The position numbers and the translations under genes were made by a program. The notes below the pieces were generated by a model. That model was given only the letters and a program-made list of their open reading frames with translations, did not search any database and was not told where the DNA came from. This document shows positions 408 through 64,000 of a stretch of 64,000 bases of DNA, piece after piece; the first letter of the stretch is position 1, and each line of letters opens with the position of its first letter. The DNA is from Hormiphora californensis (taxonomy: Eukaryota > Animalia > Ctenophora), in the NCBI GenBank assembly GCA_020137815.1, contig CM035357.1:5146001-5210000 (forward strand), read 5' to 3'.

Positions 408-6627
<6,220 letters not shown>

Positions 6628-26167: not shown

Positions 26168-26795
26168 CACGTCATCGTAATCATCACTGCGCTGGCAAGC
26201 GCAAAAGTCACCATCCCCCTCCTGGCTCCTTCAGCCGTTTATACCATTGAAAACTCATTAACAATCGAAAAATCGGCAGCAAATGGCATTTTTACGCCTT
26301 TATAGGTTGATACTCCATTCTTAAACCCACACATCAGACAAAACAAGCATCCACGATTAGGCACAAAAAGTTTTTCACTTTTTTTTGGCATACGTTGCAG
26401 GCCCCTTATAATATAATATAAGGGGCCTGGAGGGAATACCGCGCTGGGGGGGAATACATAAACAATCATATCTCCGGTTCCAGATAAGGTACAGAAATCG
26501 TTTTGGTAGCGTTGGAAAGAGGAAGATAACAGCTTTAAAATGCAACCGGTTTCAGGTCTCTATCTTATCAGGAACAGGAGATATGAACCAAACTCCGCAA
26601 AATCGAGTGCGGTAAAATGAAAAAATTCGAGATTTTAATTCAAATTTGAAACAAAGTGTCCCTGCAGGGATCTGTGACGTCACTTTTTGAAAACAACCCA
26701 TCTTTGAACGGTTATTGCTCAGCCTCCTGAAGTCCAATTTACTTCTCTCAAAAACAGCAAGGTAGATAATTGTCAGATCTAACAGCTAGTGAAAG

Positions 26796-26829
26796 CTTTT
26801 CAACACTACTTTAAACAAATTAATTTGAG
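26796..26829 (+). other. Spliced-leader-like sequence at the LINE 5' end
   Basis: CTTTTCAACACTACTTTAAACAAATTAATTTGAG, 45 nt before the ORF1 ATG; its last 25 nt recur exactly at 62865-62889. Matches my recollection of ctenophore SL exons ending AATTTGAG; needs checking. Confidence 0.78.
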
Positions 26830-26874
26830 GCGCGCGCCCGTGCGTTTTCGAATATCCCTCTGTAGGCTCTAGCC

Positions 26875-28278
26875 ATGCCAGATATGACAAATATGGCTAC
26901 ACCTACTGATGACAAAAGTGATGGCAATACCCTTGCCGTTGGAAATCTTGTAAACGCAGCAGATCCTCTCACCAAAAAGGTCCTGTCTGCCTACCGCCAT
27001 GATGTGGATTACACCAAGAATCTGGACATCATCCGCACATTCAATTGTGCCCACCTGGAAGCCGCTGCATCATTTTTCGGTGCATCCCCCGGCTCACATG
27101 CAGACAAAACTAAGCGGTACCAGAACCGCACTACACTAGCTGACTACATCATCATTCAGCTGGAAAGTCATTTTCCCTGTGATTGTGAGGGCTGCGGAGA
27201 AGGATATGCAGTTAAACTAGGTGAATCTCCTCGTGTCCGCTGTTTTCTTTGTCAGCAGGGGTCTCATGATTGCGAGGCTATGGATGGCACCCTTGGGTCC
27301 TTGACGGGGTCGGTCTGGTTATGTCTGCCGTGCAAGGACAAAAACAACAAAATTGAAACCTTCATGTGCAACCGAAGTGCTGAAGATCCAGAATCAGTGC
27401 TATCTGATGAGGAATACGAGTTCAAAATCAGTCCGAAGGCAGGCCGTAGTGGTAAGAAGAAGAGGAAGAAGAAACAAGCTCCTGTCAAGAAAGATCCTGA
27501 TGATCTGGTAACTCCTGTTGGTGGAGTGACAGTTCTAAAAGATGTGGATCTTGGAGACGTATCTTCTGATGGAGAGGTGCAACAGCAAGGTGTTCCCAAA
27601 TTCAGCAATGTTTGTGAACGTTATCTACTGAGAGACTGTCCTCATGGCCCAAATGGTGACAAGTTGATTAGTGGTAAGCCTTGCAGCAAGGAACATCCCC
27701 AGAAATGCCTCCGTTATTGTCAGTACGGAACGGCAACTCGTTCTGGGTGTAACTTTGGTGATAAGTGTCAGAATTTTCACCCACCTCTCTGCCATAATTC
27801 TGAGATCTCCCGAGTCTGTACCGACAAAGAATGTAAAGACACACATTTAAAGAACACTCGGAGAAGTGAAGTAGCCCCTGCTAAGGGTAATTCATTGAAG
27901 AGTACTGGTAACAAAACCAGTGATCTCTCTCAGAAAGTGGAGCAGAAAGAGCCCCGTCGTTCAGCTCCTCCAAACCCAAAGAAGAAGAAGAAGAAGATTA
28001 ACAAAACTGAGACCGATCCCCGTGCCGCGACCAATGACATCCGTTCACAAGAGGATTTTCTCATGGCATTGATGGCCTCAGTGAGGGACGAGATTCTTCG
28101 AGAAGTAAAGACGTCACTGAACTCATCTCTACAGTCCTTCAGGGAAGAGATGACGAGGGAACACACACCCCGGCCCAAACATCTGACACTCACACAACCA
28201 GGCCTGAACACCCCGACCAACTACCAAGGGGTTCTGGAACGGTTTCGGAATTACTCCTCATCAACGCCCGCAGTTTAA
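26875..28278 (+). CDS. LINE ORF1 with PHD-like finger and CCCH-type zinc fingers
   Basis: CEGC..CFLCQQGSHDC..WLCLPC (PHD-like); C-x7-C-xn-C-x3-H repeats; basic tracts. Confidence 0.85.
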   Translation: MPDMTNMATPTDDKSDGNTLAVGNLVNAADPLTKKVLSAYRHDVDYTKNLDIIRTFNCAHLEAAASFFGASPGSHADKTKRYQNRTTLADYIIIQLESHFPCDCEGCGEGYAVKLGESPRVRCFLCQQGSHDCEAMDGTLGSLTGSVWLCLPCKDKNNKIETFMCNRSAEDPESVLSDEEYEFKISPKAGRSGKKKRKKKQAPVKKDPDDLVTPVGGVTVLKDVDLGDVSSDGEVQQQGVPKFSNVCERYLLRDCPHGPNGDKLISGKPCSKEHPQKCLRYCQYGTATRSGCNFGDKCQNFHPPLCHNSEISRVCTDKECKDTHLKNTRRSEVAPAKGNSLKSTGNKTSDLSQKVEQKEPRRSAPPNPKKKKKKINKTETDPRAATNDIRSQEDFLMALMASVRDEILREVKTSLNSSLQSFREEMTREHTPRPKHLTLTQPGLNTPTNYQGVLERFRNYSSSTPAV

Positions 28279-31187
28279 CGCCTTCCGCGGCTAGTGACTG
28301 TCGGTGGAAGTTTTCTTTTATCAAGGACTCATTGGAGAATCCGTCAATACCCATCCTTTGCACCGGTATTACGGAGACCTGGTGGCATGATGATTTCTCT
28401 GATGCCCAATTGGAGATTGAAGGCTTTCACCTAACTCGTTGTGACAGAGCGGGTAGAAGAGGTGGCGGTTGTGCACTCTACATTAACAATCAACTGACCC
28501 CTTCCTCTGAGTTCAGATTCTCAGACACGTCCAATAGTGCGGCTGCTGTATACATCAAGGAGACCCACTCGGTTTTCTGTGTTGTGTACAGGGCGCCATC
28601 TTCCCCTGCGAATGACCTTTTTGATGATCTATCCCGTTTCATTGATCAGTGCGAACTCGACAAGGGTTGTCCTGACATCTATGTTATGGGCGACTTCAAT
28701 ATGCCAGACATAGACTGGGGAACACTCACTGGAGGACCTAACCCTTGCTCACAGATGCTACTAAAATTTGTGAACTCATATTTTCTCACTCAGCTTGTTG
28801 ACTCCCCAACACGGGGCTTGAATATTCTAGACCTCGTTCTCACCAACCGGCCAGACTATGTCTTCAAAACTGAGGTATCGGAGTCGTGTATTTCTGACCA
28901 TAATATGATCAGCTCTACACTTGGGTTTGGTATCTTACCCACTCGTCAATCAGACCATCGATTCACGGACTTTGATATTTACAACTTTCATGAGGCTAAC
29001 TTCCCTGAAATGTGTAGGGAGTTAGACCAGATCGACTGGCTAGCACTCGCCGACATCTGCGATGACGGTGATGGTTCTGATTTCGTTCAACTTTTCACCC
29101 TGACTGTTCTACAGGTCTTATCTCACCACTCTCGTAAGAAGAAGGCCCGTAAAAAAAGAAGGGACCCTGTTCTCAGGAAATTGAAAGTGAAACAGCGGAG
29201 TTTGAATAAACGGATTGCTCTTGCACGGCAGAATAAACCTCACCTTTTGCCACAGCTCGAGATTGGTGTTTCCAGAATTACTTGGGAAATTTTGTGCCAC
29301 ATTTCTCAGCGACTTGACAGTGATGAAAACGAGGCGCTGACAAAACTCAAAGCTAACCCAAAATTCTTCTGGTCATACGCCAACCGAAAGAGGAAGACCC
29401 GGTCACGTATACCTCCTTTACAGACAAGTGATGGTTCACTCACTGACGTTCCCGCTATGAAGGCAGAACTGTTTCAATCTCAATTCACATCTGTTTTCAG
29501 CACTCCTTCAAACTCTTCCTCAACAGCTGCAGACAACATCATTCCTTCTACATGCAGCCTTTCAGACATCGTTTTCTCCACCGCTGATATTGAAAAGGCA
29601 CTACATGACCTCAATCCCTATTCAGCCGGCCCTCCAGGAGATGTACCTGCCAGAATTTTACGTGACTGCCGATCATCGCTGTCCTACCCCCTATCCATCT
29701 TATGGGACAAATCGTTTGATTCTGGTATTGTACCACCCTGTCTGAAACTTCAGTACATTGCACCCCTCTACAAAAAGGGTCCTAAAATGAAAGCTGAAAA
29801 TTACCGCCCGATCTCCCTCACCAGTCACATTGCCAAGACATTTGAACGGGTTGTAAGATCTCAAATGGTGTCATACTTTGAATCAGAGAACTTGTTTAAC
29901 GAGTCTCAGCATGGGTTTAGAAGCAAGAGGAGCTGCTTATCCCAACTCACTCGTCACATTGACAATATTCTGAACAATCTCAACGACCTTCTTGAAGTGG
30001 ATGTAATCTACTTGGACTTCGAGAAGGCGTTTGATAAAGTTGACATCGGTATACTTCTCGAAAAGCTGCAGAGATATGGAGTTAAGGGCAAACTCCTTGA
30101 ATGGATCCGCAGCTTCCTACTAAACCGGAAACAAACGGTCTTAGTCGACGGCGTAGCGTCTTCTTTTGCAGAAGTCAGAAGTGGGGTCCCACAAGGGACT
30201 GTTCTCGGTCCACTTTTATTTCTGATCTATGTAATTGACCTGGAATCCGTAATCAAACACGGTTCTTCTTTGTCGTTCGCTGATGACACTAAAATCTTCT
30301 CTGCTATCCGTACTATGGTTGACAAATTGAACCTACAGGAGGATCTGAACAGTGTGATAACCTGGGCTGACGCTAACAATATGTCCTTGCACCAGTCAAA
30401 GTTCGAGGTCATGAATTTCACCCTGAATCACACCAGTTCGCTTAGAGAAGTACCGTTCAGTGCTGAGAACTATTCCTATCAACTCTCTGATGGGAGGTTC
30501 ATCGATCCAACAGACACTGTCCGAGACTTAGGTGTTCTACTCTCGAGTGATGGTCAATGGTCGGCCCAAATATCTCGAGTTGTTACCACGGCTAGTCGGG
30601 TTGCTGGATGGACATTAAGTGCATTTAGATCCAGAACTCGCCGCACCATGATGACTCTTTACAAGTCACTGGTGCGTCCCCATCTTGACTACTGTTGCAC
30701 ACTGTGGTCACCTTCCAAAAATGGGGATATTAGTCGTGTTGAGGATATTCAACGATCGTACACCCGTAAGATCGTTGGTCTCAAGGGGCTGAACTACTGG
30801 CAACGTCTTCAAACCCTGGGACTTTTGTCGCTTCAGCGCCGACGTGAGAGGTACACTATGATTCTTGTGTGGAAAGTGTACAACAATGAGATACCCAATA
30901 GTACTGACATGTGTTTCGTCGACAGGCACCGCTCTGGCCCTAGTGCTGTCGTCCCTCGATACTCGTACGAGGCTCAACGATCTAACCTGTCGCTATATGA
31001 ACAATCATTTGCGGTACTGGGGGCAAGGTTGTGGAACACTTTGCCTCGATCTGTAAAGGAGGCCCCAACTCTTTATCAGTTCAAATCTCAGCTAGGTAGT
31101 TTCCTCTCTACCATTCCGGATACACCCCCCATCAGCGGTTATCCTGCTCAAGCAAACAGTAACTCAATACTAGAGTGGTGTCCATGA
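28038..31187 (+). CDS. LINE ORF2, AP endonuclease plus reverse transcriptase (CR1/L2-group-like), intact; frame open from 28038
   Basis: INARSL, ITETW, GDFN, LDLVL, SDH (APE); NYRPISL, QHGF, DFEKAFD, GVPQGTVLGP, FADD, DLGV (RT). Confidence 0.93.
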   Translation, partial: HPFTRGFSHGIDGLSEGRDSSRSKDVTELISTVLQGRDDEGTHTPAQTSDTHTTRPEHPDQLPRGSGTVSELLLINARSLTPSAASDCRWKFSFIKDSLENPSIPILCTGITETWWHDDFSDAQLEIEGFHLTRCDRAGRRGGGCALYINNQLTPSSEFRFSDTSNSAAAVYIKETHSVFCVVYRAPSSPANDLFDDLSRFIDQCELDKGCPDIYVMGDFNMPDIDWGTLTGGPNPCSQMLLKFVNSYFLTQLVDSPTRGLNILDLVLTNRPDYVFKTEVSESCISDHNMISSTLGFGILPTRQSDHRFTDFDIYNFHEANFPEMCRELDQIDWLALADICDDGDGSDFVQLFTLTVLQVLSHHSRKKKARKKRRDPVLRKLKVKQRSLNKRIALARQNKPHLLPQLEIGVSRITWEILCHISQRLDSDENEALTKLKANPKFFWSYANRKRKTRSRIPPLQTSDGSLTDVPAMKAELFQSQFTSVFSTPSNSSSTAADNIIPSTCSLSDIVFSTADIEKALHDLNPYSAGPPGDVPARILRDCRSSLSYPLSILWDKSFDSGIVPPCLKLQYIAPLYKKGPKMKAENYRPISLTSHIAKTFERVVRSQMVSYFESENLFNESQHGFRSKRSCLSQLTRHIDNILNNLNDLLEVDVIYLDFEKAFDKVDIGILLEKLQRYGVKGKLLEWIRSFLLNRKQTVLVDGVASSFAEVRSGVPQGTVLGPLLFLIYVIDLESVIKHGSSLSFADDTKIFSAIRTMVDKLNLQEDLNSVITWADANNMSLHQSKFEVMNFTLNHTSSLREVPFSAENYSYQLSDGRFIDPTDTVRDLGVLLSSDGQWSAQISRVVTTASRVAGWTLSAFRSRTRRTMMTLYKSLVRPHLDYCCTLWSPSKNGDISRVEDIQRSYTRKIVGLKGLNYWQRLQTLGLLSLQRRRERYTMILVWKVYNNEIPNSTDMCFVDRHRSGPSAVVPRYSYEAQRSNLSLYEQSFAVLGARLWNTLPRSVKEAPTLYQFKSQLGSFLSTIPDTPPISGYPAQANSNSILEWCP

Positions 31188-31880
31188 TGCGTGTTAGTGT
31201 GTTATGTGTCGCTGTGCTGTGAGTGTACTGAGTATTGACTCTTTTTAGGAGGTTTATCTTTTTAAATATCCTGTGTGTTACGCAAATTTATGAATTTCAT
31301 TTCAATCAAGTCAAACGGACTTCAGGGGCCAAAGTTATAAGCACCGCCGTTTTTTCGCTCGCAAAGTTATCTTCGACCTAGCCGGGCCCGTCCTGAGCTC
31401 AGGCCAAACGCGCGCGCGGCATTCCCTTCAGTCCCCTCGTTGCGGGGGTGCGCGCATGAGGGGGCTGCAGCGCATTCCAACACTTTTTTCAGCCAAAAAT
31501 CGGGACTTAAAAAACGCGCCTGAGCTGCGAATTTTGGAAAGTAAGCCGCGCCGCGCGTAGTGTCGCAGCTTTAAAGCAAAAAGTACGCGTTCAACCAAAT
31601 TCTTCCACAAATAACTTCCCATAAAGCAAGCGACTCAAAGACCAAAGTATTACTTTGGTCTTTAAGTAATCACACATTTTCTTTTCGTCCGATTTTACCG
31701 TGTGAACCAAGTAACGATTGACTGATATAACGGGCTAACAAATAAATAATGAAAACAATACAAACATTAAAATAGGATAAAATAATTAAAAATGATCCAC
31801 CTTCATCAATGGTCGTCACTCAGTCCAATGATTTTTATTTTCAGTTGTCCTAAAGCTACCATACTCCATAACAATCGTAC

Positions 31881-32831: not shown

Positions 32832-35800
32832 TCACCAATCCATCTTATTCTCCTTATTCTCTTCTTTGACCGCTCCACTTTTACTGTGGCACTCCTCCGC
32901 AAACTTTCTAAACAGGTCTACGCTGGATTTTAGGGATGTTTTAGCGTAGTCAGGGACCTTATTGCCTGACTCCTCCCCTTCCTTCCAGTTCCCCATCTCT
33001 TCTACCAACTGTTCCAAAGTCTGAACACGGGGGAGGAATGTAAATATTGGTGATAAAAAGGATTCATATCCACAAAAAAGGGGGAAAGATCGGTAGAACT
33101 TCGACATTTAGGGCAGTTCATTTTAGGGCATGTTGTCCAATTAGCATGAAGCGGGCACACGGAAATACTGCACTTACCGGGACAGTAAAGGGATCAAAAG
33201 TGTCCACGTCCTTCGCTAGGAACGGGATACAGACCCGCCCAGTTTTGGGATGAACAGAGAAGGGAGATTTGAGAAGATGGTTGAGGCCCTTTGTCACATT
33301 GACATCCAACCGGGGATAACACAGCTGAAATAGAGGGGATATTGGGAAACTCGATCGTTGTATGTATGAGATTGTGCTGTACACTGTAATGCAGGAGTCT
33401 CCCGTTTCACTTGTCTCATATATAAGACCGTCCTCTTCGCACCGGGCCGGGGTACAGTCAGTGCCTGACAACGTTTCACGTACTGTACAGTGTACAGTAT
33501 GTGAAACTAGAGACTCCTGTTATAGTACAGAGCTTTTCTTGTTCAATCACTTTAAATTTTGATATGAAGTTTCTAGCTGATCACCTGCAGAACAACTTCT
33601 TTGATCGCATTATTTTTCTGCTTCCTCGCTTTAGCATATTCAGCCCAGGCACTTTTTAACAGGCTCCATTTCTTCTTGCTATCACCTGGACTTGCAGCCC
33701 AGTCTGCCATGTCATTTTGAATGGTCTTGGCCGGGAACATGTTTAGCACCTGCAGAGGGGGAGTTTAGAGTTGGAATAATAGTAAATGCTGAACCCGGCC
33801 GACCCGATTTGAGTGCAAAACAGGGTCTAACGCCGCTGGACAGTGGACACTAGGGTGTGCTAAGTGAAAATTTTGTCGACTTGGCCAATAGTTTAAGGGT
33901 AGATATGAAACTATGGACAATTGTCTACTACATCCTGAAATCGGAATTGGGGTAGTGTATGTCAATTACGTGGGCCAGGCGATTAAAAAAGTTTAATTTT
34001 TTACCGAAAAAAGGAAAATATTTGTGTTTTACACCAGTGTTTGGCATGTTCTTGATATCAAATTTTTATGGTCAGGGTCGTGTTCAGCGGTTTGATACCG
34101 ATCAGAATGGATGTGTATCATGAAAGTTAGCCAAAGTTCATTTTTTACCTGAACATGTTCATTTTGGACCAAAAATGTTCATTTTTGACTAAAGATGGTC
34201 ATTTTGGTCATTTTCTTCAATTTTGAGAGCTTTTTCATGAACGGGATCGTGTTCAGCAGGTCAAAATTAGTCGGTTACAACCAGAATTTGCTTTCCGACA
34301 AATAAAATCTCAAAAAGTTAAAATTCGTCTCCACTAATACTGCAAAGTAGGAAAATGTGCAAGAAAAAAAGATGAAAAAAAAATGTTTTCATTATAAAAT
34401 GGAGTTCTGAAGGTACATACTGGAAATAATGGTTGTACTGGTTCTCATGAGGCGATTCATATGTGTGGTTTTTTCGAAATAACGCCCCAAAAAACATTTT
34501 TTGATATGAATATGCCCATATATGGGCATACATCGGCCCACGTAATTGGGCCAGGGTAGGACTAAAATTTTTTTACCAAATGTTTTAGAATGATCGTAGG
34601 AACTCATTCTAGGGGTAAACTTTGTGAAAATTGGATTTGATTTATGAGTTGGGAAAAATAGCACACCCTAGTGGACACTGATAATAGAGCACAGTGGTCT
34701 TTTGGTGGTCACTAAGAATTTTACGAAAAATTGTTTTTGAACCTATCTGGTAGCTTTTCGAGCGTAGAATCCAATGCACCCCTCACTCATGCCTTGAATT
34801 TTTGAGGAAAGTGGTGTTTTTCCAAAAAGAAGGGTAATTGAAAAATTTTCGAAAAATTTTTTATGAGCTTATCTGGTAGCTTTTTTTTGTTTTGTACAAA
34901 CTCTTTTATTTTATTTTATAAAAAAAGTCTAACCTGGCAAGCTTTTTTGACGTAGAATCAAATATACCCCTCACTCATGCCTTGATTTTTTGAGGAAAGT
35001 GGTGTTTTTTCAGTTTTTAGTCTTTTTAGGCTTCTTTGACAACCATACTTAAAATTTAGCTGGAGCAGGTGAAATGGGGATCCATAACAATTTAAATGTG
35101 GTTGATAGTAAGAAATCGAACAAATTTATATCTCATTCAAAAATTTTTTTTCAAACTTCATCCAGGGCGTTTTTATGGTCAAATAACGAAGAAAACTTGA
35201 TTTTTCGACCATAATATACAATAGTACGCGCTTGAAACCTTTTTTATCTGAAAGGCCAGACAATTTCCTATCTTTTGGTCTATAGGACATCGATGAGGTT
35301 CGATGAGGAGGCTGGGGAGAAAGCGTTAAAGAAGGCATGTATGGTTACTTTAAAAAAAAACGATCATTTAAAAGTTTGAGACCTAACTAAACACGTTTCC
35401 CGACCTTATTTTACACGTAGAATCGATTGCCGATAGAATTAGAACTCTAATATTGAAGGAAAACGGTGAAAACGCGTTTTTTCGTCTTATACATACACGC
35501 CTTCTTTAACGCGTTCTCCCCAGCCTCCTCATCGAACCTCATCGATGCCCCATAGACCAAAAGATAGGAAATTGTCTGGCCTTTCAGATAAAAAAGGTTT
35601 CAAGTGAGTACTATTGTATATTATGGTCGAAAAATCAAGTTTTCTTCGTTTTTTGACCATAAAAACGCCCTGGATGAAGTTTGAAGAAAAATTTTTGACT
35701 GAGATATAAATTTGTTCTATTTCTTACTATCAACCACATTTAAATTTTTGTGGGTCCCAATTTTAAGTATGGTTGTCAAAAAAAATTTTTTCCTTAATGA

Positions 35801-37114
35801 CCACCTACTCCCATGAAAAAGGCCACTGTGTAGAGGTTGATATAGTCTAAAGTCTTCCAAGACCTGAAATTCACAGAAAACAATTTGACGATATACCTGA
35901 TTCCTCTTCTCAGGGGTGGACAAGAAATCCTGGTTACGAATCATCAGCTCGTCAAAATACCCCGCTGTAATCTCTACGGCTCTCTCAATAGCAGGGTGGA
36001 GGGCTCCAGGGAGGAGAACCTTCTTCGACTGGTTATCTCCCCCAACCACCACAGACATGTAGTCAGCTATTGCTCCCCTTCCTGACAACAATTGGGGGAA
36101 GATATAGGTAACGATATAAAACAAGGGAGTGAGTGATGGGAATTGTGTAGCTCACACGCTCTGTGAGGGTTCGGGAGGAAGAATACCAAACATTGGCTCA
36201 GTATCCAACTTGTCTGCTTACCAGAGTTGTTTAGCTTCCTGGCCGTTTCATCAGCAATCCAACAATGAATACCCCTCCTTCCCGAGTAGACCCATAGGAT
36301 TTGGGAAAACCCGAAATCTGTCCTCAGCGCCTCATCTAGGACTTTAACTGCAATCTTCATAAAGACCCAACAGCTTGGACAAATATTGGCCTCCTGGCAA
36401 CACGACCTGCAGTGGGTGATTATTAGGGACCAACTTGCAAAAAGCACCAGGGTATATAGCAGTATGTGTAATGTGATTGTAGGAGTGAAGCTAAACGGGA
36501 AAATTAGGAAACATTGGGGCTGATGAAAGAGAGGTCTTTGTTACACCCACCTCACATCATCGTAATCTGTCATGTCAATATCAAACACAACCTCTCTCTC
36601 CATCGCTGTGAATGCCCCACTTTTAAATGCCTTGTGGTCCTTAGGTTTGGCATTGTAAACCGCACCAACGTCAATCTTAAACGGGTTCACTGCACGAAGC
36701 TCCTTCTTGAATTCGTCCTGGTTCGAAAAGGACTTGTACCTGGAGGAGGGGGTTTAGGAGGTGATAACCAAAGGTGATAACCAAATCTTGGTTGATTTCC
36801 AGGAATGTTATGTAGGGGAGAGAAGGACAATGAGGGGGTAGATTTTGTCTAGCTCAACCCACTTTCCGTACGCTCCTCTTTACAAATGTAAAGGAGGGTT
36901 AGAAAAGGGTAGAGTAAGGACCCCTTACTCAACAAATAACGAGGGGTAGATTAAGATCTCACCGTAGGTATATATCCCCGTTTAGGGTGAAAGAGAACTC
37001 CCGTTTAGCAAGGTAGTCTGGTGAGCCATAGGATAACCATTTGATATAGGGGCTATACGGGAACAACTTGGAGTAGTAGATCTTCAGATGTTCCTCTATG
37101 TCGGCAACCGGCAT
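32832..37114 (-). CDS. PRIM1: DNA primase small (catalytic) subunit, ~7 exons
   Basis: KREFSFTL..DIYLRY, FDIDMTDYDDVR, VYSGRRGIHCW, YPRLDVNVTKGLNHLLKSPFSVHPKTGRVCIP. Confidence 0.96.
33851..34670. mobile_element. hAT-type non-autonomous element in a PRIM1 intron
   Basis: TAGGGTGTGCTA...TAGCACACCCTA; 8-bp TSD GTGGACAC. Confidence 0.88.
34690..35830. mobile_element. Transib/RAG-like non-autonomous element
   Basis: Ends CACAGTGG...CCACTGTG; 5-bp TSD TAGAG (34685-34689, 35831-35835); single TAGAG at the empty site ~58685; internal ~300-bp inverted repeat. Confidence 0.85.
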
Positions 37115-37920: not shown

Positions 37921-39064
37921 TTAGGCTGATGGCATGGGGATGGCAGTATCTCCGTTGTTTGTAGGCTGTTCTGTTACTGTTTCTCCCATTGTCCTCTCTT
38001 CTGTCTCTTCTAGATCTTCCGGCCTGTTAAGAAGTTGGGTCAGACTCATGGGAGAGAATGTGTACATATGCATACCTCTGTTATGTGTGAGTGTGAATGT
38101 GCTATGGGAATATGCGGGTGATTGTATTGTGTTTCCTACGGCTTTCTCTCTCCCTCCCCCTCTCTCTCTCTCCCTCCCCCTCCCCCTCCCGCCTCTCTCT
38201 CCCTCCCTCGCTCTCTCCCCTACATACCTGACATCTGTGTAGTCCTCCTGTTCTCGGTCCAGTTTCCCACAGCAGTTGCAGCAACAGAAGCAGCAACAGC
38301 AACAGAAGCAACAACAGGTCAGGATAAAGATTATCGTTCCTACCACCTGGAGAGAAGGGGTGGTTAAATCTCAAATACGCCAAACTCATCCGTTCAAATG
38401 CCAAACAGCTTAATTTCACCATTCAATTTCGTCATCCATGTCAAATTTCAGAAATTCAGTCCGTGTGAGAGAAAGAGCCGTGCGCCAAATGCTGACAATA
38501 CATACTGCGCGCGGCTATCACGAACTCCTGCTAGTCGCAAAAGATGTCCTGCAAATATTGTCCCACATTGCGCTGTGTGTGCTACCAGCAGAGCGCAAGA
38601 GAGAAAGAAGTAGAGACGACAGCAGGACGATTTTAAATCCAACGATTTCCGGCACAATCAGATACGTCACAGAATACTAGAGATAGTTAACGGACCGAAA
38701 CATCTGATTTATTGCAGTTTCTAGAGAAATGCATTTCTCTTGAAATCTGTCAGACCTTACACACACGAACATGACGTATGATACACACAGCAATCTAGTG
38801 GCCGCGGACTAATGATTGTTAATTGGCCTAATTAGGTCTGACACGATCTCTCACACGTACACACTGTGGCGGTTGTTAAGATTTCCTAGTATTTCCGATT
38901 CTAGGAAAGTTTAGCATCGCTTACTTGTATTTCAAATTTGAAGTTCAAGACATCAATTTTACAAATTCTTAGTGATAAAATTTTCAATTTGAAATTTGAA
39001 ATTTCCAAGATCTGCTACTTACTCTGCAGAAGGTGCTGTTCATACAGTAGTAGATACCGACGTT
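37921..39064 (-). CDS. DNAJC5: Cysteine string protein (DnaJC5), last three exons only; J-domain exons absent
   Basis: NVGIYYCMNSTFCR/VVGTIIFILTCCCFCCCCCFCCCNCCGK.../..TVTEQP..AIPMPSA*. Confidence 0.85.
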
Positions 39065-45637: not shown

Positions 45638-48469
45638 TGGCACTCTGATCGTTTCTCGTTTCCTGTGCTTCTAGTTCAGTACAAACACCACATTTTGTCA
45701 CCGTTTCTTCCTTTAACATTCAAAAAATCACCCCACAGCCCTCCTCTACTCCCCAGTGGTCTCTACACAGCTTAGATAATGCCCAATGTGGTCCTGATAA
45801 GCTTAGAAATGGCTCATTTTCACTGAAAAAGATTCCCGAAAATTTCGAAACAAAGTCATTTTTGAAGTTTGCGATGCATTTATTTCCATTTTATTAAAAG
45901 TCCACTTTAAGTTGCTTGCGGAGGCCCGTACACATGGTTACCACTTCGTGACATACTTCCCGGAAGTCTCATTGCACTCTGATCGTTTCTCGTTTCATGT
46001 TGCTCTCGTTTCCTCAGTAACAAACACCACATTTTGTCACATGTTCTTCCTTTAACATTCAAAAATCACCCACAGCCCTCCTCCTACTCCCCAGTGGTCT
46101 CTACACAGCTTAGATAATGCCCAATGTGTCCCTGATAAGCTTAGAAATGGCTCATTTCACTGAAAAGAGTTCCCGAAAATTTCGAAAAAAAAAAAGCATT
46201 TTTTGAAGTTGCGATGCATTTTATTTCATTTTATTAAAAAGTCCACTTTTAAAGTTGCTTGCGGAGGCCCGTACACATGGTTACCACTTCGTGACATACT
46301 TCCCGGAAGTCTCATTGCACTCTGATCGTTTCTCGTTTCTGTTGCTCTCGTTTTCTCTCAGTACAAACACCACATTTTGTCACCTGTTTCTTCCTTTAAC
46401 ATTCAAAAATCACCCACAGCCCTCCTCTACTCCCAGTGGTCTCTACACAGCTTGATAATGCCCAATGTGTCCCTGATAAGCTTAGAAATGGCTCATTTTC
46501 ACTGAAAAAGATTCCCGAGAAATTTCGAAAAAAGTCATTTTTGAAGTTTGCGATGCTTTTATTCCATTTTTTTATTTAAAAGTCCATTTTAAAGTTGCTT
46601 GCGGAGGCCCGTACACATGGTTACCACTTCGTGACATACTTCCCGGAAGTCTCATTGCACTCTGATCGTTTTTCGTTTCCTGTTGCTCTCGTTTCTCTCA
46701 GTACAAACACCACATTTTGTCACCTGTTCTTCCTTTAACATTCAAAAATCACCACAGCCCTCCTTACTCCCAGTGGTCTCTACACAGTTAGATAATGCCC
46801 AATGTGTCCCTGATAAGCTTAGAAATGGTCATTTCACTGAAAAAGATTCCCGAAAATTTCGAAAAAAGTCATTTTTGAAGTTTGCGATGCATTTTTATTT
46901 CCATTTATTTAAAAGTCCACTTTAAAGTTGCTGCGGAGGCCCCCGTACACATGGTTACCACTTCGTGACATACTTCCCGGAAGGTTCTCATTGCACTCTG
47001 ATCGTTTCTCGTTTCCTGGTGCTCTCGTTCTCTCAGTACAAACACCACATTTTGTCACTGTTCTTCCTTTAACATTCAAAAACTCACCCACAGCCCTCCT
47101 CCTACTCCCCAGTGGTCTCTACACAGCTTAGATAATGCCCAATGTGCCCTGATAAGCTTAGAAATGGCTCATTTCACTGAAAAAGATTCCGAAAAATTTC
47201 GAAAAAGTCATTTTTTGAAGTTTGCGATGCATTTTATTTCCATTTTATTTAAAGTCCACTTTTAAAGTTGCTTGCGGAGGCCCGTACACATGGTTACCCT
47301 TCGTGACATACTTCCCGGAAGTCTCATTGCACTCTGATCGTTTCTCGTTTCCTGTTGCTCTCGTTCTCTCAGTACAAACACCACATTTTGTCACCTGTTT
47401 CTTCCTTTAACATTCAAAAATCACCCACAGCCCTCCTCCATCCCCAGTGGTCTCTACACAGCTTAGATAATGCCCAATGGTGTCCCTGATAAGCTTAGAA
47501 ATGGCCCATTTTCTACTGAAAAGGTAACCGAAAAATCCCACCCGCCCCCCCCCAGCCACCCCCTAAAATAGAGGCGTTTACTAAACAGCCCACTACAGCG
47601 ACAATCCTGTGTTTTGGTGCACTAAGGTCGCTTATCGCTGTAACAATTATCAATGATCCTATCTATGTTATCCGATTGTCTCTAGAACATATCACACTCT
47701 ACATTGTACTGTCCTATGCCTTATTTGTGTTTGATGTCTTTTAATCTTAATCTCTACTGAAAATGGACACACTTCACATCTCATCACCAATTACGTCACG
47801 GTACCCATCAATCCATCAAGGTCGTAAGTTTGTCAGTCCGTTGTTATGTACAGTTGTATCCAAATTATGATCGTAGCCATTGAGAGATTTCTATTCTTAT
47901 TCAGTTAGATCTTTAGCTAGCGCTGTTGACAGACCGTACTCACAATGGAAAACGTTACCTTGATCCAGACCAAGTCCAAGACTTGCTACCTTGTTCCAAA
48001 ATCATTCAAGACTACCACAAAGGCAAAACGTTACCTTGTTCCAGACAACAAAACTCAAGACACTCAAGGCAAATCGTTACCTCTGTTCCAGGACTAAACT
48101 AAACTCAAGACACTCTAAGGCAAAACGTTACCCGTGTCCAGACCTAAAACTAAAATCAAGACATCTCAAGGCAACAACAATGTACCAGCTCCAGCTAATA
48201 TAAACCTTAGGAATTTGATTTAGGCCAGGAGTAGTGTGATACCCCTGTCGACGTCGTGGCGGCTCACGCCGCTCGGGCGTCGACAGTGGTTGACCACGGT
48301 CTTCCTGGAGGTCTGAAGTAAACATGCTTCGCATAAAACTGATTGGTGGGTGGCCTTGCACGGCGGAGGGGTGGACGTGCTGGGGCGCCTAATAAGCGTG
48401 CTCGGTGCGGCCGCCGCTACTTTCGGGCAGGTCACTCGCCAGACGCAGCAAGTACAAACAAACAAACAA
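45638..48469 (+). mobile_element. Non-coding retro-insertion B: ~340-bp tandem array x5.6, conserved core, short repeats, GC-rich 3' region, (CAAA)n tail
   Basis: 12-bp TSD ACATACATATTT (45626-45637, 48470-48481); absent at ~16615; unit starts at 45640, 45974, 46317, 46657, 46993, 47329. Confidence 0.82.
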
Positions 48470-57666: not shown

Positions 57667-60600
57667 TCACCAATCCATCTTATTCTCCTTATTCTCTTCT
57701 TTGACCGCTCCACTTTTACTGTGACACTCCTCAGCAAACTTCCTAAACAGGTCCACGCTGGATTTTAGGGAGGTTTTAGCGTAGTCAGGGACCTTATTGC
57801 CTGACTCCTCCCCTTCCTTCCAGTTCCCCATCTCTTCTACCAACTGTTCCAGAGTCTGAACACGGGGGGAGGAATGTGAATATTGGTGATAAAAAGGATT
57901 CATCTCCACAAAACAAGGGGGAAAGGTCGGTAGAACTTCGACATTTAGGGCAGTTCATTTTAGGGCATGTTGTCCAACTAGCATGAAGCGGGCACACGGA
58001 AATACTGCACTTACCGGGACAGTAAAGGGATCGAAAGTGTCCACGTCCTTAGCCAGGAACGGGATACAGACCCGCCCAGTTTTGGGATGAACCGAGAAGG
58101 GAGATTTAAGAAGATGATTGAGGCCCTTTGTCACATTGACATCCAACCGGGGATAACACAGCTGAAATAGAGGGATATTCGAGGCAAAGTTTGCCTTGCT
58201 CGACTCTCTTTCCGTAAAGGAGGGTTCGAACAAGGTTCGAACAAGGTTCGAACAAGGAAAGCTCGATCGTTGTATATGAGAATATCGTTGCTGTACAGTT
58301 CGTAAAACAAGGGAGTGAAACGAGAGACTCCTGTACAGAGCTTTTCTTGTTCGAATTTTAATATGAAGTTCATAGCTAAATACCTGCAGAACAACTTCTT
58401 TGATCGCATTGTTTTTCTGCTTCCTCGCTTTAGCATATTCAGCCCAAGCACTTTTTAACAGGCTCCATTTCTTCTTGCTATCACCTGGACTTGCAGCCCA
58501 GTCTGCCATGTCATTTTGAATGGTCTTGGCCGGGAACATGTTTAGCACCTGCAGAGTTGAGCGTTTAGAGTTGGAATAAAAGTAAATACTGAACCCGGCC
58601 GACCCGATCTGAGCGCAAAAAAGGGTCTGGCGGGGGGGGAGGGGGGATCTAGCGCCCCTTGACACTGATAACACTGGATACTATTAGAGCTTGATATACT
58701 CTACCAAGACCTGAAATTCACAGAAAACAATTTGACGATTATATGTACCTGATTCCTCTTCTCAGGTGTAGACAAGAAATCCTGGTTACGAATCATCAGC
58801 TCATCAAAATATCCTGCTGTAATCTCCACAGCTCTCTCAATAGCAGGGTGGAGGGCTCCAGGGAGGAGAACCTTCTTCGATTGGTTATCTCCCCCAACCA
58901 CTACAGACATGTAGTCAGCTATTGCTCCCCTTCCTGACAACAATTGGGAGAAGATATAGGGAACGATATAAAAGAACTAAAACAAGGAAGTGAGTGATGG
59001 GGCGTATCGGTAGAGAAAGAATTGTGTAGCTCATACTGAACGCTCTGTGAGGGTTCGGAACGAAGAATACCAAAAATTGGCATTTGGCCAAGTATCCAAC
59101 TTGTCTGCTTACCCGAGTTGTTTAGCTTCCTGGCCGTTTCATCAGCAATCCAACAGTGAATACCCCTCCTTCCCGAGTAGACCCAAAGGATTTGGGAAAA
59201 CCCGAAATCTGTCCTCAGCGCCTCATCTAGGACTTTAACTGCAATCTTCATAAAGACCCAACAGCTTGGACAAATATTGGCCTCCTGGCAACACGACCTG
59301 CAGTGGGTTATTATTATTATTAGGGACCAACTTGCAAAAAGCATCAGGGTATATAGCAGTATGTGTAATGTGATTGTAGGAATGAAGCTAAACAGGAATT
59401 AGGAAACATTGGGGCTGATGAAAGAGAGGTCTTTGTTACACCAGGAACCGACCGAATCAGGAAATACTGGTCCCTGATTGGCTGATAACCAGTGACGATA
59501 ACAGGTTCTGAGGGGGGGGTGACACGTAACACTTTGTAACACTTTGTAACATGTGCAGAAAACTTTTTGTGCACGTTACATGTTACAAAGTGTTACATAG
59601 TGTTACATAGTGTTACATAGTGTTACAAAGTGTTACATAGTGTTACAAAGTGTTACATAGTGTTACAAAGTGTTACATAGTGTTACATAGTGTTACATAG
59701 TGTTACAAAGTGTTACATAGTGTTACATAGTGTTACAAAGTGTTACATAGTGTTACAAAGTGTCACAAAGTGTTACATAGTGTCACAAAGTGTTACAAAT
59801 TGTTACAAAGTGTTACAAATTGTTACAAAATATTTACAAACACACAAGGATTTGTAGCGAAGCAAATTTTCAATCTTTGACCAAAAAATTGATTTTGGAA
59901 AAATTTCATTTCTTTTTCCAACAGAAACGTTGTATATCATCTTATTAAGTACAAAGAATCGATTACCAATGAAAAAAAGTCGATTGGGTCACAACTCACA
60001 GGTGACTCAGCACATTGGGGGCCTCTGAGAGGCACAATACTTTTAATATCACTCTAAAAACTTTACCGTTGTCTAAAGTTCATATTTTTCTTTACCAAAT
60101 GGACTATTTCAGCCCTGATTTCCACAGTCGATGACATCGGAGGCTCAAAATATCCGCAAATTAGTAAAAAAGTGTATGTTTTAATAGTAGAGTCGATAAC
60201 TACATCGACCTCTCCCAATTGTTCCAGTTTTTGTCACATCTGTTTGGAGCCTCGACACGACCTCTAAACAGGTGTTACTTTTTCACAAACTGTTTTCATC
60301 TTGGTGTAATCAGCAGTTGAAATGTTGCTAATCATAACAAAAACCTGACTAAATTTTTTCAACTTGGGGTAAAACCATGGGTGTCAAAAGTTAGCTCTAG
60401 GTCCCCTGAGTAACCATCCGGAGACTCTAAGAGATATTTCAAGCCGTTCTCCCGTAATCATTAATCCCGGTGGAGAAAAAAAATACAATGCGGACGTACG
60501 TGAGCGCTGGCAGGCTGTTTACATGTTATTGTATGTCTCTCACTCTCTCTGGAAAAACCGCACGTGCGGTTGCGCCGCGCGAGATAACTCTTTCTCAAGG

Positions 60601-61907
60601 GGGAGAAAAGAGAGAGACGCACATTAACGTTATACATTAAAGTTGAGGTTGTAGGCAATTGCACGTACGTCCATACTCAAATATGTGCTCTACCGGGATA
60701 AATGATTACAGGAGAACGGCTTGAAATATGTCTTGGAGTCTCCGGATGGTTACTCAGGGGACCTAGAGCTAACTTTTGACACCCATGGTTTTACCCCAAG
60801 TTGAAAAAATTTAGTCAGGTTTTTGTTATGATTAGCAACATTTCAACTGCTGATTACACCAAGATGAAAACAGTTTGTGAAAAAGTAACACCTGTTTAGA
60901 GGTCGTGTCGAGGCTCCAAACAGATGTGACAAAAACTGGAACAATTGGGAGAGGTCGATGTAGTTATCGACTCTACTATAACCCTAGAAATGATTTATAA
61001 CTTTTAGATGTGTTCTAGAAAGACACCAAAGTCGTTCAAATTACTTATTCACCAACCGTCTTATATATTTTGTAAATATTTTGTAACAATTTGTAACACT
61101 TTGTAACAATTTGTAACACTTTGTGACACTATGTAACACTTTGTGACACTTTGTAACACTATGTAACACTTTGTAACACTATGTAACACTTTGTAACACT
61201 TTGTAACACTATGTAACACTTTGTAACACTATGTAACACTTTGTAACACTATGTAACACTATGTAACACTATGTAACACTATGTAACACTTTGTAACACT
61301 TTGTAACACTATGTAACACTTTGTAACACTATGTAACACTTTGTAACATGTGCAGAAAACTTTTTGTGCGCGTTACATGTTACAAAGTGTTACAAAGTGT
61401 TACGTGTCACCCCCCCCCTTCTGATTGGCTGTTTACTTGTTTTGGTTCCTTTGTTACACCCACCTCACATCATCGTAATCTGTCATGTCAATATCAAACA
61501 CAACCTCCCTCTCCATCGCGGTGAATGCCCCACTTTTAAATGCCTTGTGGTCCTTCGGTTTGGCATTGTACACCGCCCCAACGTCAATCTTGAAGGGGTT
61601 CACTGCACGAAGCTCCTTCTTGAATTCGTCCTGGTTCGAAAAGGACTTGTACCTGGGGGAGGGGGTTAGTTTAGGAGGTGATAACCGAATCTTGGTTGAT
61701 CTCCAGGAAAGCTATGCAGGGGAGAGAAGGACAATGAGGGGGGGGGGTGTCGTACCGTAGGTATATATCCCCATTTAGGGTGAAAGAGAACTCCCGTTTA
61801 GCAAGGTAGTCTGGTGAGCCATAGGATAACCATTTGATATAGGGGCTATACGGGAACAACTTGGAGTAGTAGATCTTCAGGTGTTCCTCTATATCGGCAA
61901 CCGGCAT
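57667..61907 (-). CDS. PRIM1: DNA primase small subunit, second copy/allele
   Basis: Near-identical protein, with synonymous changes and different intronic TEs. Confidence 0.9.
59442..61451 (-). mobile_element. hAT MITE (3706 family) split by a nested foldback element
   Basis: MITE halves 59442-59511 and 61419-61451; TSD TGTTACAC; empty site ~36540. Confidence 0.82.
59512..61418. mobile_element. Foldback element with G-run termini and 10-bp tandem arms (TGTTACAWAG)
   Basis: GGGGGGGGTGACACGTAACAC inverted ends; arrays ~59575-59830 and ~61080-61350; inner inverted repeat ~60186-60460 vs ~60700-60978; apparent TSD TTCTGA. Confidence 0.87.
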
Positions 61908-62511
61908 GGTATCTGATATTTGAGATATTCGGATGAAATCGTGGTGTTCATTATTGAGGTAGAGATGTTTCGGGATCAGCTGATTTAGCGAGTTGGAAGT
62001 TGTAAAATGGAAACACGGTGATCTAAGAGATCGATCTAAAAATAATCTTACTCAGAGAGGTACACAAAACTAAGAGAGCAAAGCTAATACAATGATATAT
62101 TACCATGAGAAATCCTCTTCAATACATATTCGATTTTCATGTGAAATTTCATTTTTGGACAATCTTTCGTTCATACATCTCTTCCCAAAAAAACTATGTC
62201 TGCATGTGTCTACAATCTCTCTCTCTCTCTCTCTCCAGTACCCTATGATCTCTCTTCATCTACGTATTTTACAACTAACTACAACGTACTAGAAACTGTG
62301 GTGAATATGGTGAGACATGTGTGGGAGCTAGATGTGAACTAGATGTGTGAGGTTTTATCTTGCCTTGTTTTGAACAAAACGACTTTTATCATGGAGAGAT
62401 GGGAGCAGTAATATATAATAGAAAGCATAGATCATGGAGACGCAAACCTGTCAGGACAATGCTCTGACAGTTCAAAACTAGTATTGTTTTGGTGAGAGAA
62501 ACTCCACACAA

Positions 62512-62552
<41 letters not shown>

Positions 62553-62708
62553 AAACCGATCTCTCTCTCTTCTCCAAAGCAGGAGTTGTTATGTTCAATC
62601 CCCCCTCCTTTAGGGGCCGAACAAGGCAAAACAGGTGATGGGCTGTAAAAGTAGCATTTAATCCTAGGGCCAGCCGCGGACCGTGATGATGAAAAAGGCT
62701 CCAGTGAT

Positions 62709-62811
62709 TTAGGCTGATGGCATGGGGATGGCAGAGTCGCCGTTGTTTGTAGGTTGTTCTGTCACTGTTTCTCCCATTGTCCTCTCTTCTGTCTCTTCTA
62801 GATCTTCCGGC
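62709..62811 (-). CDS. DNAJC5: DNAJC5 last exon, second copy
   Basis: PEDLEETEERTMGETVTEQPTNNGDSAIPMPSA*. Confidence 0.75.
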
Positions 62812-62864
62812 CTGTAAAGAAGTTGGGTCACACTCAGGGGAGAGAATTTGTACATTATATGCAT

Positions 62865-64000
62865 ACTACTTTAAACAAATTAATTTGAGGTGTACGTATG
62901 TAAAGAGCGCCGTACACCACCCACAGTAAGCTCTCTCAAGAAGAAGATCATCAACTACGTGAGTTAGTCACTCTGAAGTTCGGACCACGCCACCCTCAGC
63001 CACATCATCATCATGGGCCCTAACACCGTCAGTCCGGCAGGACGTGTTTTAGGTGGATTGTTAGCTGTGGCAGAGAAGCTGAAAGACAAGAAGCAAGCTG
63101 ATGCAGTGAAGTCAGTGATAACGCTTTTCAACCAGGGAAGACTGCGGCAGAGAATGCCAACAAAGTGACTACAGTAGGGAAACCAAACAAACGATGAATC
63201 ATTCTTGGAATAGACGCATTTCTCAAAGGGCAACAAAGGTTTTCAAAAAAGGATAAACTGCGAAGAGGAAGAAGGGAACAAAAATATTGAAGGAGCATCA
63301 AATGCCTAAATGGGGGGAAAAAAAAATTCACCTCCAGCGGGGGAGGAGAGAGCTACAAATTTTTTCCTATGCAGCCAGCCTCTATACTGTGAAAAGTTGT
63401 GGGGGGATGGGGTCTAGGGATAGGATGGAGGGCTTTCCTGACCCGACGCTGGTAGCACGCTTTTAAACCCAAGGGGTGGAGCATGAGACCACTTCATACG
63501 AACACCCCAGCCCGGGTAAAAGGAATCCAAAATCCCGGGGGGGTTTCCCCCCGAAGCCCCCAAGGCCATCGACGGAAATGAGGGATACCATGACAATTCC
63601 CATGCAATTTCCGGGGCCGCGGATCTGGTGTGACCAAAGCAACTTCAGGGGGGCTGAGGAGGGGGAAAACCGCGTTAAAGACGTAAAAAGGGAAAGCAAC
63701 AAAAAAACAGGAAGAAGAGGAAGAAAAACGGAAAAGGAAAAAAAAGCAAAACATACGATGCCGGACTGATCAGAGGATTAACCCAGCGTTTGCAGGAAGT
63801 TGAACGTAGCGAAAGAGGGGGAGAAGTTTCCAAAAACCCGGTTTAAACAACATGCCCCCGTATGAAGACGGGGGGCCTGCCCCGCAGGTTTGGGGGGAAG
63901 AAGGCCAGAGGGGATACCAAACTGCCCAAAACTTTCACCCTAAAATAAAGAAGTTTTCTAGGAGGGCCCTGGAAAAGATGGATGTACCGGGGAGAAAGTG
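62865..64000 (+). mobile_element. Insertion beginning with spliced-leader-like sequence; probable 5' end/ORF1 of a second LINE family, degraded toward the window end
   Basis: ACTACTTTAAACAAATTAATTTGAG exactly where homology with 38075 stops; ATG at 63013 (MGPNTVSPAGRVLGGLLAVAEKLKD...). Confidence 0.55.

What the first reader, a model, noticed from the sequence alone, without database searches (positions are those of the whole stretch)
62865..64000. Second, unrelated insertion also starts exactly with the SL-like 25-mer
Seen: in a DNAJC5 intron, homology to the first copy (~38075) ends precisely at an exact 25-nt match to 26805-26829, and what follows differs from the first LINE. Inference: an independent SL-led retro-insertion. 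Its short ORF start and degraded downstream sequence loosely resemble a LINE ORF1. Two cases in 64 kb suggest the phenomenon is common. An SL RNA gene is less likely: the next bases GTGTAC are a weak donor and the SL is 5'-clipped.
Basis: partly seen in the sequence, partly recalled or inferred. Interest (0 to 1): 0.7.

Follow-up and report, generated by a model that had tools for sequence, protein, structure and literature searches.

The report
Comb-jelly LINE headed by spliced leader
A jumping gene (LINE) in a comb-jelly-type genome begins with a DNA copy of the short leader that these animals splice onto their messenger RNAs, as do other copies and other LINE lineages, which likely means they were copied from leader-spliced RNA and would explain many of the stray leader copies in such genomes.

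Summary
Real, not an SL RNA gene. 62865-62889 is the last 25 nt of the published 44-nt ctenophore spliced leader (SL). Homology to the duplicate block stops there; a short-read contig bridges flank, SL and downstream DNA with no mismatch, and a second sample has the empty site. What follows is a 123-nt 5' UTR and a LINE ORF1, a distant relative of the first LINE's ORF1 (49.8 bits; shuffles at most 30), so not 'unrelated'. The 'short ORF' and 'decay' are assembly errors. The same SL+UTR head occurs at another site in the second sample. In metagenome contigs, 8 of 13 SL copies with non-SL flank head LINEs of two distant lineages; one contig shows the true SL gene (5S-linked tandem array, GTAAG donor), which shares nothing with this locus beyond the exon. 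Best reading: retroposition of a trans-spliced LINE RNA (0.85). ORF2, tail and TSD lie beyond the window. The idea is already in print for flatworms and dinoflagellates. Open twist: no outron-headed copy and no stacked leaders were seen, so the leader remnant may serve as its own splice acceptor.

The parts
62865..62889 (+). 3' 25 nt of the 44-nt ctenophore spliced leader, ending in AG
   Evidence: (published SL)
62890..63012 (+). 5' UTR of the LINE (123 nt; one ATG-stop at 62898; small hairpin 62889-62918, no better than shuffles)
   Evidence: shared by several copies in three runs
63013..64000 (+). LINE ORF1, running off the window: helical N-terminal domain (63046-63188), PHD-like Cys motifs (~63310-63400, visible mainly in short-read contigs), acidic/basic linker, CCCH fingers (63793-63997)
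   Evidence: loose ends read by eye as CxxC and SHDC
63124..63125 (+). one base missing in the assembly; causes the false early stop at 63166-63168
   Evidence: table 4, runs X1 and X5
63146..64000 (.). unpolished, indel-rich assembly sequence
62812..62864 (-). 3' end of the host intron (DNAJC5-like gene), acceptor AG at 62813-62812; LINE is antisense to the gene
38024..38227 (-). same intron in the other copy, empty site at 38073-38075
26796..26829 (+). comparison: 34-nt SL remnant heading the first LINE
26875..31187 (+). comparison: first LINE, ORF1 (26875-28278) and APE-RT ORF2 (28038-31187)

Best explanation
This is the 5' end of a LINE whose first 25 bases are the host spliced leader, inserted antisense into an intron and absent from a second sample, and it was most likely copied from a LINE RNA that had received the leader by trans-splicing. 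Shown: SL identity, exact join of the SL's last base to a family-wide 5' UTR, ORF1 homology, filled and empty alleles. Inferred: a full-length LINE RNA was trans-spliced, reverse-transcribed to within 19 nt of its cap (target-primed, by an APE-RT ORF2 as in the first LINE) and joined at a 2-nt microhomology. How the leader is renewed is open; my odds: re-splicing of read-through RNA onto the AG that ends the genomic SL remnant 0.4, unseen source copies with their own outron 0.35, leader inherited in cis from an internal promoter 0.25.
For: Junction bridged by a 621-nt contig, 62560-63145, 0 mismatches, 1 gap (X1) and by 62790-62892 in X3. Empty site in X5 and X6 (one sample) and, as a second allele or copy, in X3. 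A different flank + 24-nt SL + 44 nt of the same UTR in X5 (record 12). SL+UTR contigs unbroken over 62865-63012 (X3) and 62865-62995 (X6), depth 132 against 15-20 for the flank contigs in X3 (rough hint of several copies). ORF1 profile from 155 homologues: 49.8 bits, 0 of 40 local shuffles reach it (max 30.0), 106 other window stretches max 32.0; N-terminal and CCCH parts significant separately and in order; error-free first 38 aa score 51 against best-of-166 null max 43 in 30 shuffles. This ORF1 family precedes APE-RT in the first LINE and APE in L063. 8 of 13 flanked SL copies among 106 metagenome loci head LINEs, keeping 28-43 nt of exact SL while four related 5' UTRs are only 77-94% alike. 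Two lineages, ORF2s 23-27% identical. A possibly-RNA contig of 2443 nt joins SL to a related ORF start (X18).
Against: No ORF2, tail or TSD seen for this copy. The PHD part alone was not detected in the noisy assembly (14.6 bits, 23 of 40 shuffles reach it); Pfam found nothing in six frames; an 8-sequence profile was not significant; plain BLASTP of the 38 aa against L063 found nothing. No RNA contig of this exact subfamily was seen. X1-X4 may be the animal the window came from. The metagenome scan demanded an exact 25-mer, so it cannot find mutated leaders, and two of the eight LINE contigs have only 5-6 nt of flank. No tail or TSD was found for the first LINE either.
Confidence: 0.85

Rival explanations
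1. The LINE head is real but the junction is a later rearrangement or the edge of the duplicated block, not the insertion point.
For: The duplicate block ends exactly here; no TSD can be seen; the SL is clipped more than in most copies.
Against: A second sample has the same flank running straight into the empty intron sequence; other copies are clipped at the same or next base (X3 record 4, X5 record 12).
Confidence: 0.05
2. The SL was added during reverse transcription by template switching or RNA ligation (as in U6-L1 chimeras, recalled), not by splicing.
For: Such chimeras are known for LINEs (own knowledge).
Against: The join is always at the SL exon's last base and at a fixed family 5' position; no SL-intron bases follow.
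Confidence: 0.04
3. An SL-gene-targeting element (NeSL/CRE-like) that sits behind the SL exon and is co-transcribed from the SL promoter.
For: SL exons are known targets of non-LTR elements (PMC4640811, passages).
Against: Those clades use a restriction-like endonuclease; these elements have APE and two ORFs. Flanks differ at every copy and none is the 5S-SL spacer of L068. Two distant lineages would need the same habit.
Confidence: 0.03
4. Chimeric assembly join.
For: The sequence turns error-rich 250 nt downstream.
Against: Contigs from two read sets cross the join without mismatch; 31-mers are longer than the 25-nt SL.
Confidence: 0.02
5. An SL RNA gene or pseudogene.
For: GT follows the SL.
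Against: GT follows the SL in 12 of 106 loci, most of them mRNA-like. No Sm-like U run (longest T run 2 in 130 nt), fold z 0.56, no Rfam hit at threshold. The real gene (L068) has full SL, GTAAG, long hairpin, a T4 motif and 5S rRNA neighbours and shares only a 7-nt chance match with this locus.
Confidence: 0.01

Closest known systems
Partial-SL loci beside LTR/LINE elements in parasitic flatworms (PMC12582326; passages read)
   Same: Partial leader next to LINEs in animal genomes; the authors propose integration of trans-spliced retrotransposon RNA (597 loci).
   Different: There a side remark by proximity (within 500 bp), loci discarded; here the base-exact join, family-wide heads, a polymorphic insertion and two lineages, in a ctenophore.
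DinoSL-relict retrogenes of dinoflagellates (PMC5585692; passages read)
   Same: SL in DNA marks retroposed trans-spliced RNA; often 5'-clipped.
   Different: Host genes rather than LINEs; relicts stack and are cut at an internal AG. The ctenophore SL has AG only at nt 2-3 and 43-44, and 0 of 12 copies tested show a second relict.
Trans-spliced TE transcripts in Hydra (PMC12220107; passages read)
   Same: About 30% of TE Iso-Seq reads carry an SL.
   Different: RNA-level only; the passages seen do not report genomic SL-headed copies.
Genomic leader copies in ctenophores (PMC8527503; passages read)
   Same: Same SL; 718 copies in Hormiphora, 491 in Mnemiopsis.
   Different: The passages seen treat them as leader loci and do not link them to LINEs.
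CR1/L2-lineage LINEs with PHD ORF1 (PMC4120745; passages and Table 1 seen)
   Same: Two ORFs, APE-RT, PHD-like ORF1 (best PDB hit MLL1 PHD3, E 0.003, the entry also listed in that table).
   Different: CCCH fingers are not mentioned there (0 occurrences); clade not assigned here.
NeSL / CRE / SLACS SL-targeting elements (PMC4640811; passages read)
   Same: SL sequence next to a non-LTR element.
   Different: They insert into SL genes with an RLE; here dispersed APE elements carry the exon only.

Membership tests
LINE (APE-type, CR1/L2-like) | ORF1 homologous to LINE ORF1s | tested here: met
   family tied to APE-RT
LINE (APE-type, CR1/L2-like) | ORF2 with APE and RT in this copy | not testable with these tools
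   window ends in ORF1; no genome held
LINE (APE-type, CR1/L2-like) | 3' simple-repeat tail and TSD | not testable with these tools
   beyond 64000; L032 and L049 of the other lineage end in (ATT)n
LINE (APE-type, CR1/L2-like) | dispersed multi-copy, polymorphic insertion | tested here: met
   other flanks, empty allele
CR1 versus L2 clade | RT phylogeny with reference elements | not tested
   no reference set at hand; label rests on ORF1 type and recall
PHD-type ORF1 | C4HC3-like finger | tested here: inconclusive
   family invariant C104 C123 C126 C133 C150 C153, PDB E 0.003, Foldseek no match at E<=0.001; in this copy only motifs in loose ends
SL-headed retrocopy | SL exon joined at its last base, no SL intron, 5' clipping allowed | tested here: met
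SL-headed retrocopy | trans-spliced RNA of this subfamily | tested here: inconclusive
   only a relative, in a run guessed to be RNA (X18)
SL RNA gene | complete SL exon and strong donor | tested here: not met
   25 of 44 nt; GTGTAC against GTAAGC in L068
SL RNA gene | Sm-like site and stem-loops | tested here: not met
SL RNA gene | tandem array, 5S linkage | tested here: not met
   single copy in an intron versus L068
NeSL/CRE SL-targeting elements | insertion in SL genes, RLE, single ORF | tested here: not met
   flanks are not SL-gene DNA; relatives have APE

The most novel reading that the evidence does not exclude
Ctenophore LINEs of at least two distant lineages propagate without a promoter or outron of their own: each insertion leaves an SL remnant whose terminal AG is the only usable acceptor, so any host read-through transcript is trans-spliced there, restoring a full capped leader with no stacking and no erosion. 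Most of the hundreds of genomic SL copies in comb jellies would then be LINE heads, a ready marker of 5'-complete elements.
Probability: 0.35. Interest if true: 0.8.

Novelty: new member of a known kind. Interest (0 to 1): 0.52.

Why it matters
It offers an explanation for the 718 and 491 genomic leader copies reported in ctenophore genomes, warns that SL matches are poor markers of SL genes and can create false shared first exons, and gives an exact tag for 5'-complete LINEs. If the remnant doubles as its own acceptor, trans-splicing would free LINEs from needing a 5' promoter, a directly testable idea in culturable comb jellies.

Tried and rejected
No whole genome. Pfam on six frames with X at stops: nothing. 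tblastn and a single-sequence frameshift alignment with the first ORF1: not significant; 8-sequence profile: right order, not significant. Search with the first 40 codons against longer proteins: 55 candidates, no hit. blastn/tblastx of 62890-64000 against 106 loci: no hit. SL in viral contigs: 0. Rfam near the SL: three matches far below gathering score. ESM Atlas for the first ORF1: leads only (0.88, zf-CCCH on 10% of members). AlphaFold model of the first ORF1 (pLDDT 74.7): Foldseek no match at E<=0.001, top rows CPSF30 CCCH. TSD/tail of the first LINE: none found. Two low-depth contigs entering the UTR at 62904 and 62966 (depth 26 and 5 against hundreds) were set aside as noise or rare truncations. 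63420-63663 had no contig cover: no conclusion drawn. Derelle et al. 2010 is not held. Marine RNA runs with small shares were not used for habitat. Earlier notes on this genome or this sequence: none.

Full report
Observation. The 25-mer occurs exactly at 26805-26829 and 62865-62889 and nowhere else with up to 3 mismatches; 100 shuffles gave none. It is the last 25 nt of the 44-nt leader printed for the ctenophore Hormiphora (PMC8527503, passages); the window is therefore taken to be from a comb jelly, species not determined. The first LINE keeps 34 nt. The window is two ~90% alike blocks, 7.8-38.1 kb and 39.4-62.9 kb. Their alignment ends at 38075/62866, two bases into the SL. The site lies 52 nt from the acceptor of a 204-nt intron of a minus-strand gene; an RNA contig matches 62411-62814 and then continues elsewhere. 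'DNAJC5' rests on my recall of the cysteine string; no J domain was found in the window stretches scanned.

Is the join real? One contig of run X1 covers 62560-63145 with 0 mismatches and 1 gap; X3 has 62790-62892 without mismatch, beside an empty-site contig of similar depth, 14.9 and 20.3. X1-X4 are one sample and may be the source animal. X5 and X6, one other sample, run from the flank into the sequence that follows 38073 in the first block, so the site is empty there. The insertion is thus polymorphic and probably young.

What follows the SL. A 123-nt UTR, then ATG at 63013. The early stop is an assembly error: X1 and X5 both have one more base behind 63124. Past ~63145 the long contigs need many gaps (8 in 114 nt, 14 in 175 nt) and homopolymer content is the highest in the window (0.42 against 0.28 +/- 0.03): unpolished reads, not decay. 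The first LINE's ORF1 has 2107 relatives at E<=0.001. A profile of 155 of these proteins, aligned with frameshifts allowed, scores 49.8 bits on the plus strand of 62865-64000; 0 of 40 local shuffles reach it (max 30.0), nor do 106 other window stretches (max 32.0). The N-terminal domain (24.1 bits, shuffles max 16.1) and the CCCH region (38.2, max 27.5) score alone and in family order; the PHD region alone does not (23 of 40 shuffles reach 14.6). Loose ends of X5 contigs at 63333 and 63380 read, by eye, as the family's CxxC and SHDC motifs. The error-free first 38 residues score 51 against the best of 166 family N-termini, null max 43 in 30 shuffles. Weaker tests failed. This ORF1 type precedes APE-RT in the first LINE and APE in L063; the family profile's best PDB hit is a PHD finger at E 0.003. 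So the element is a LINE and a distant relative of the first one, with no DNA similarity beyond the SL.

Not an SL gene. No U-rich Sm-like site, fold no better than shuffles, no Rfam hit. The metagenome scan supplied the true gene: L068, two units 778 bp apart, full SL, GTAAG donor, long hairpin, each unit with a 5S rRNA gene. Its intron shares 7 nt with this locus. GT after the SL is common anyway, 12 of 106 loci.

How common. Within this subfamily: X5 has another flank joined to a 24-nt SL and 44 nt of the same UTR; X3 has another flank joined to the same clipped SL (only 3 nt of downstream sequence in that contig); the SL+UTR contig is deeper than the flanks (132 against 15-20 in X3; depth is only a hint). 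Beyond it: the scan found 107 stretches, 106 loci were held, 80 with long flanks. 93 have the SL at or within 4 nt of the contig start and none of these hit the ORF1 profile or ORF2. Of the 13 with 5 or more non-SL bases upstream, 8 head LINEs (L029, L032, L049 with APE and RT; L063 with this ORF1 family and APE; L020, L066, L098, L105 by homology to them), 1 is the SL gene array, 2 are host-like genes with short flanks (L013, L069) and 2 head unidentified ORFs (L054, L101). L032 and L049 have only 6 and 5 nt of flank. The two lineages are 23-27% identical in ORF2.

Mechanism. Shown: the SL's last base joins a fixed family 5' end; the SL is variably clipped at its 5' side (28-43 nt in the eight loci, 34 and 25 in the window, 24 in X5); flanks differ. 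Inferred: LINE RNA is trans-spliced, then reverse-transcribed to near the cap and integrated. The leaders match exactly over their kept length while four related UTRs are 77-94% alike, which favours a fresh leader each cycle, although the scan required an exact 25-mer. In X3 and X6 the SL+UTR contig is unbroken across 62890 and none of the 10 loose ends listed for three runs lies before 62890, so no outron-headed copy was seen; contigs drop rare variants, so this is not proof. The SL has AG only at nt 2-3 and 43-44, and 0 of 12 copies tested carry a second relict within 200 nt. Re-splicing at the terminal AG would explain all of this. Against it: GAG is a rare acceptor in animals (own knowledge), this copy is antisense to its host gene, and no RNA of this exact subfamily was seen; only a relative joined to SL in a run guessed to be RNA.

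Known context. Passages of PMC12582326 report 597 partial-leader loci near LTR and LINE elements in flatworms and propose this origin. PMC5585692 covers SL-relict retrogenes in dinoflagellates; PMC12220107 reports SL on about 30% of Hydra TE reads; PMC3315495 shows an SL1-spliced LTR-element RNA; PMC11067881 passages mention SL genes but no LINE link; PMC7986045 passages gave SL-gene criteria. Ten searches showed no paper on SL-headed LINEs in ctenophores; Derelle et al. 2010 and Repbase could not be read. Earlier AI notes describe the same in dinoflagellate LINEs, unchecked.

Verdict. Real SL-headed LINE insertion, 0.85. New member of a known kind; interest 0.52. The self-renewing, promoter-independent reading has probability about 0.35 and would merit 0.8.

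Noticed in passing
L068 (263-381, 692-835, 1041-1159, 1470-1610): Tandem 778-bp unit with a 5S rRNA gene and a full ctenophore-type SL RNA gene (GTAAG donor, long hairpin, T4 motif); not matched by any Rfam SL model.
   Followed up: partly
window 7798-38075 vs 39434-62866: The two blocks (about 90% alike, 93% at the end) may be uncollapsed haplotypes rather than a true duplication: the first DNAJC5-like copy shows no J-domain exon before 39430, the join sits at a (GA)n tract, and the second sample mixes features of both.
   Followed up: partly
window 26385-31480: The first LINE lies inside another insertion absent from the second block, with imperfect inverted ends (about 26421-26444 and 31410-31433) and a repeated 9-mer at its borders; probably a non-autonomous DNA transposon.
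   Followed up: no
window 57955-62051 and 33118-36838, minus strand: DNA primase small subunit exons (Pfam hit) start a few hundred bases downstream of the DNAJC5-like gene in the same direction: operon-like spacing.
   Followed up: no
L054, L101, L009: SL followed by a shared short 5' motif and a coiled-coil ORF of no known family; possibly a third retroelement type.
   Followed up: partly
L020, L029, L032, L049, L066, L098, L105: A second SL-headed LINE lineage; L032 and L049 are near full length with (ATT)n tails.
   Followed up: yes
window 62863-62866 and records X3-4, X5-12: Three insertions are clipped at SL nt 20-21 and each flank ends in AT; may be a preferred stop or microhomology point.
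   Followed up: no
window 4634-5416 minus; 17519-18685 plus: GIY-YIG ORF (Penelope-like, recalled label) and a single-exon papain-family protease.
   Followed up: no
window 23799-25368, 45640-47536, 59439-61417: Tandem arrays of about 450 and 340 bp, and 59-60-bp repeats in inverted arrangement.
   Followed up: no
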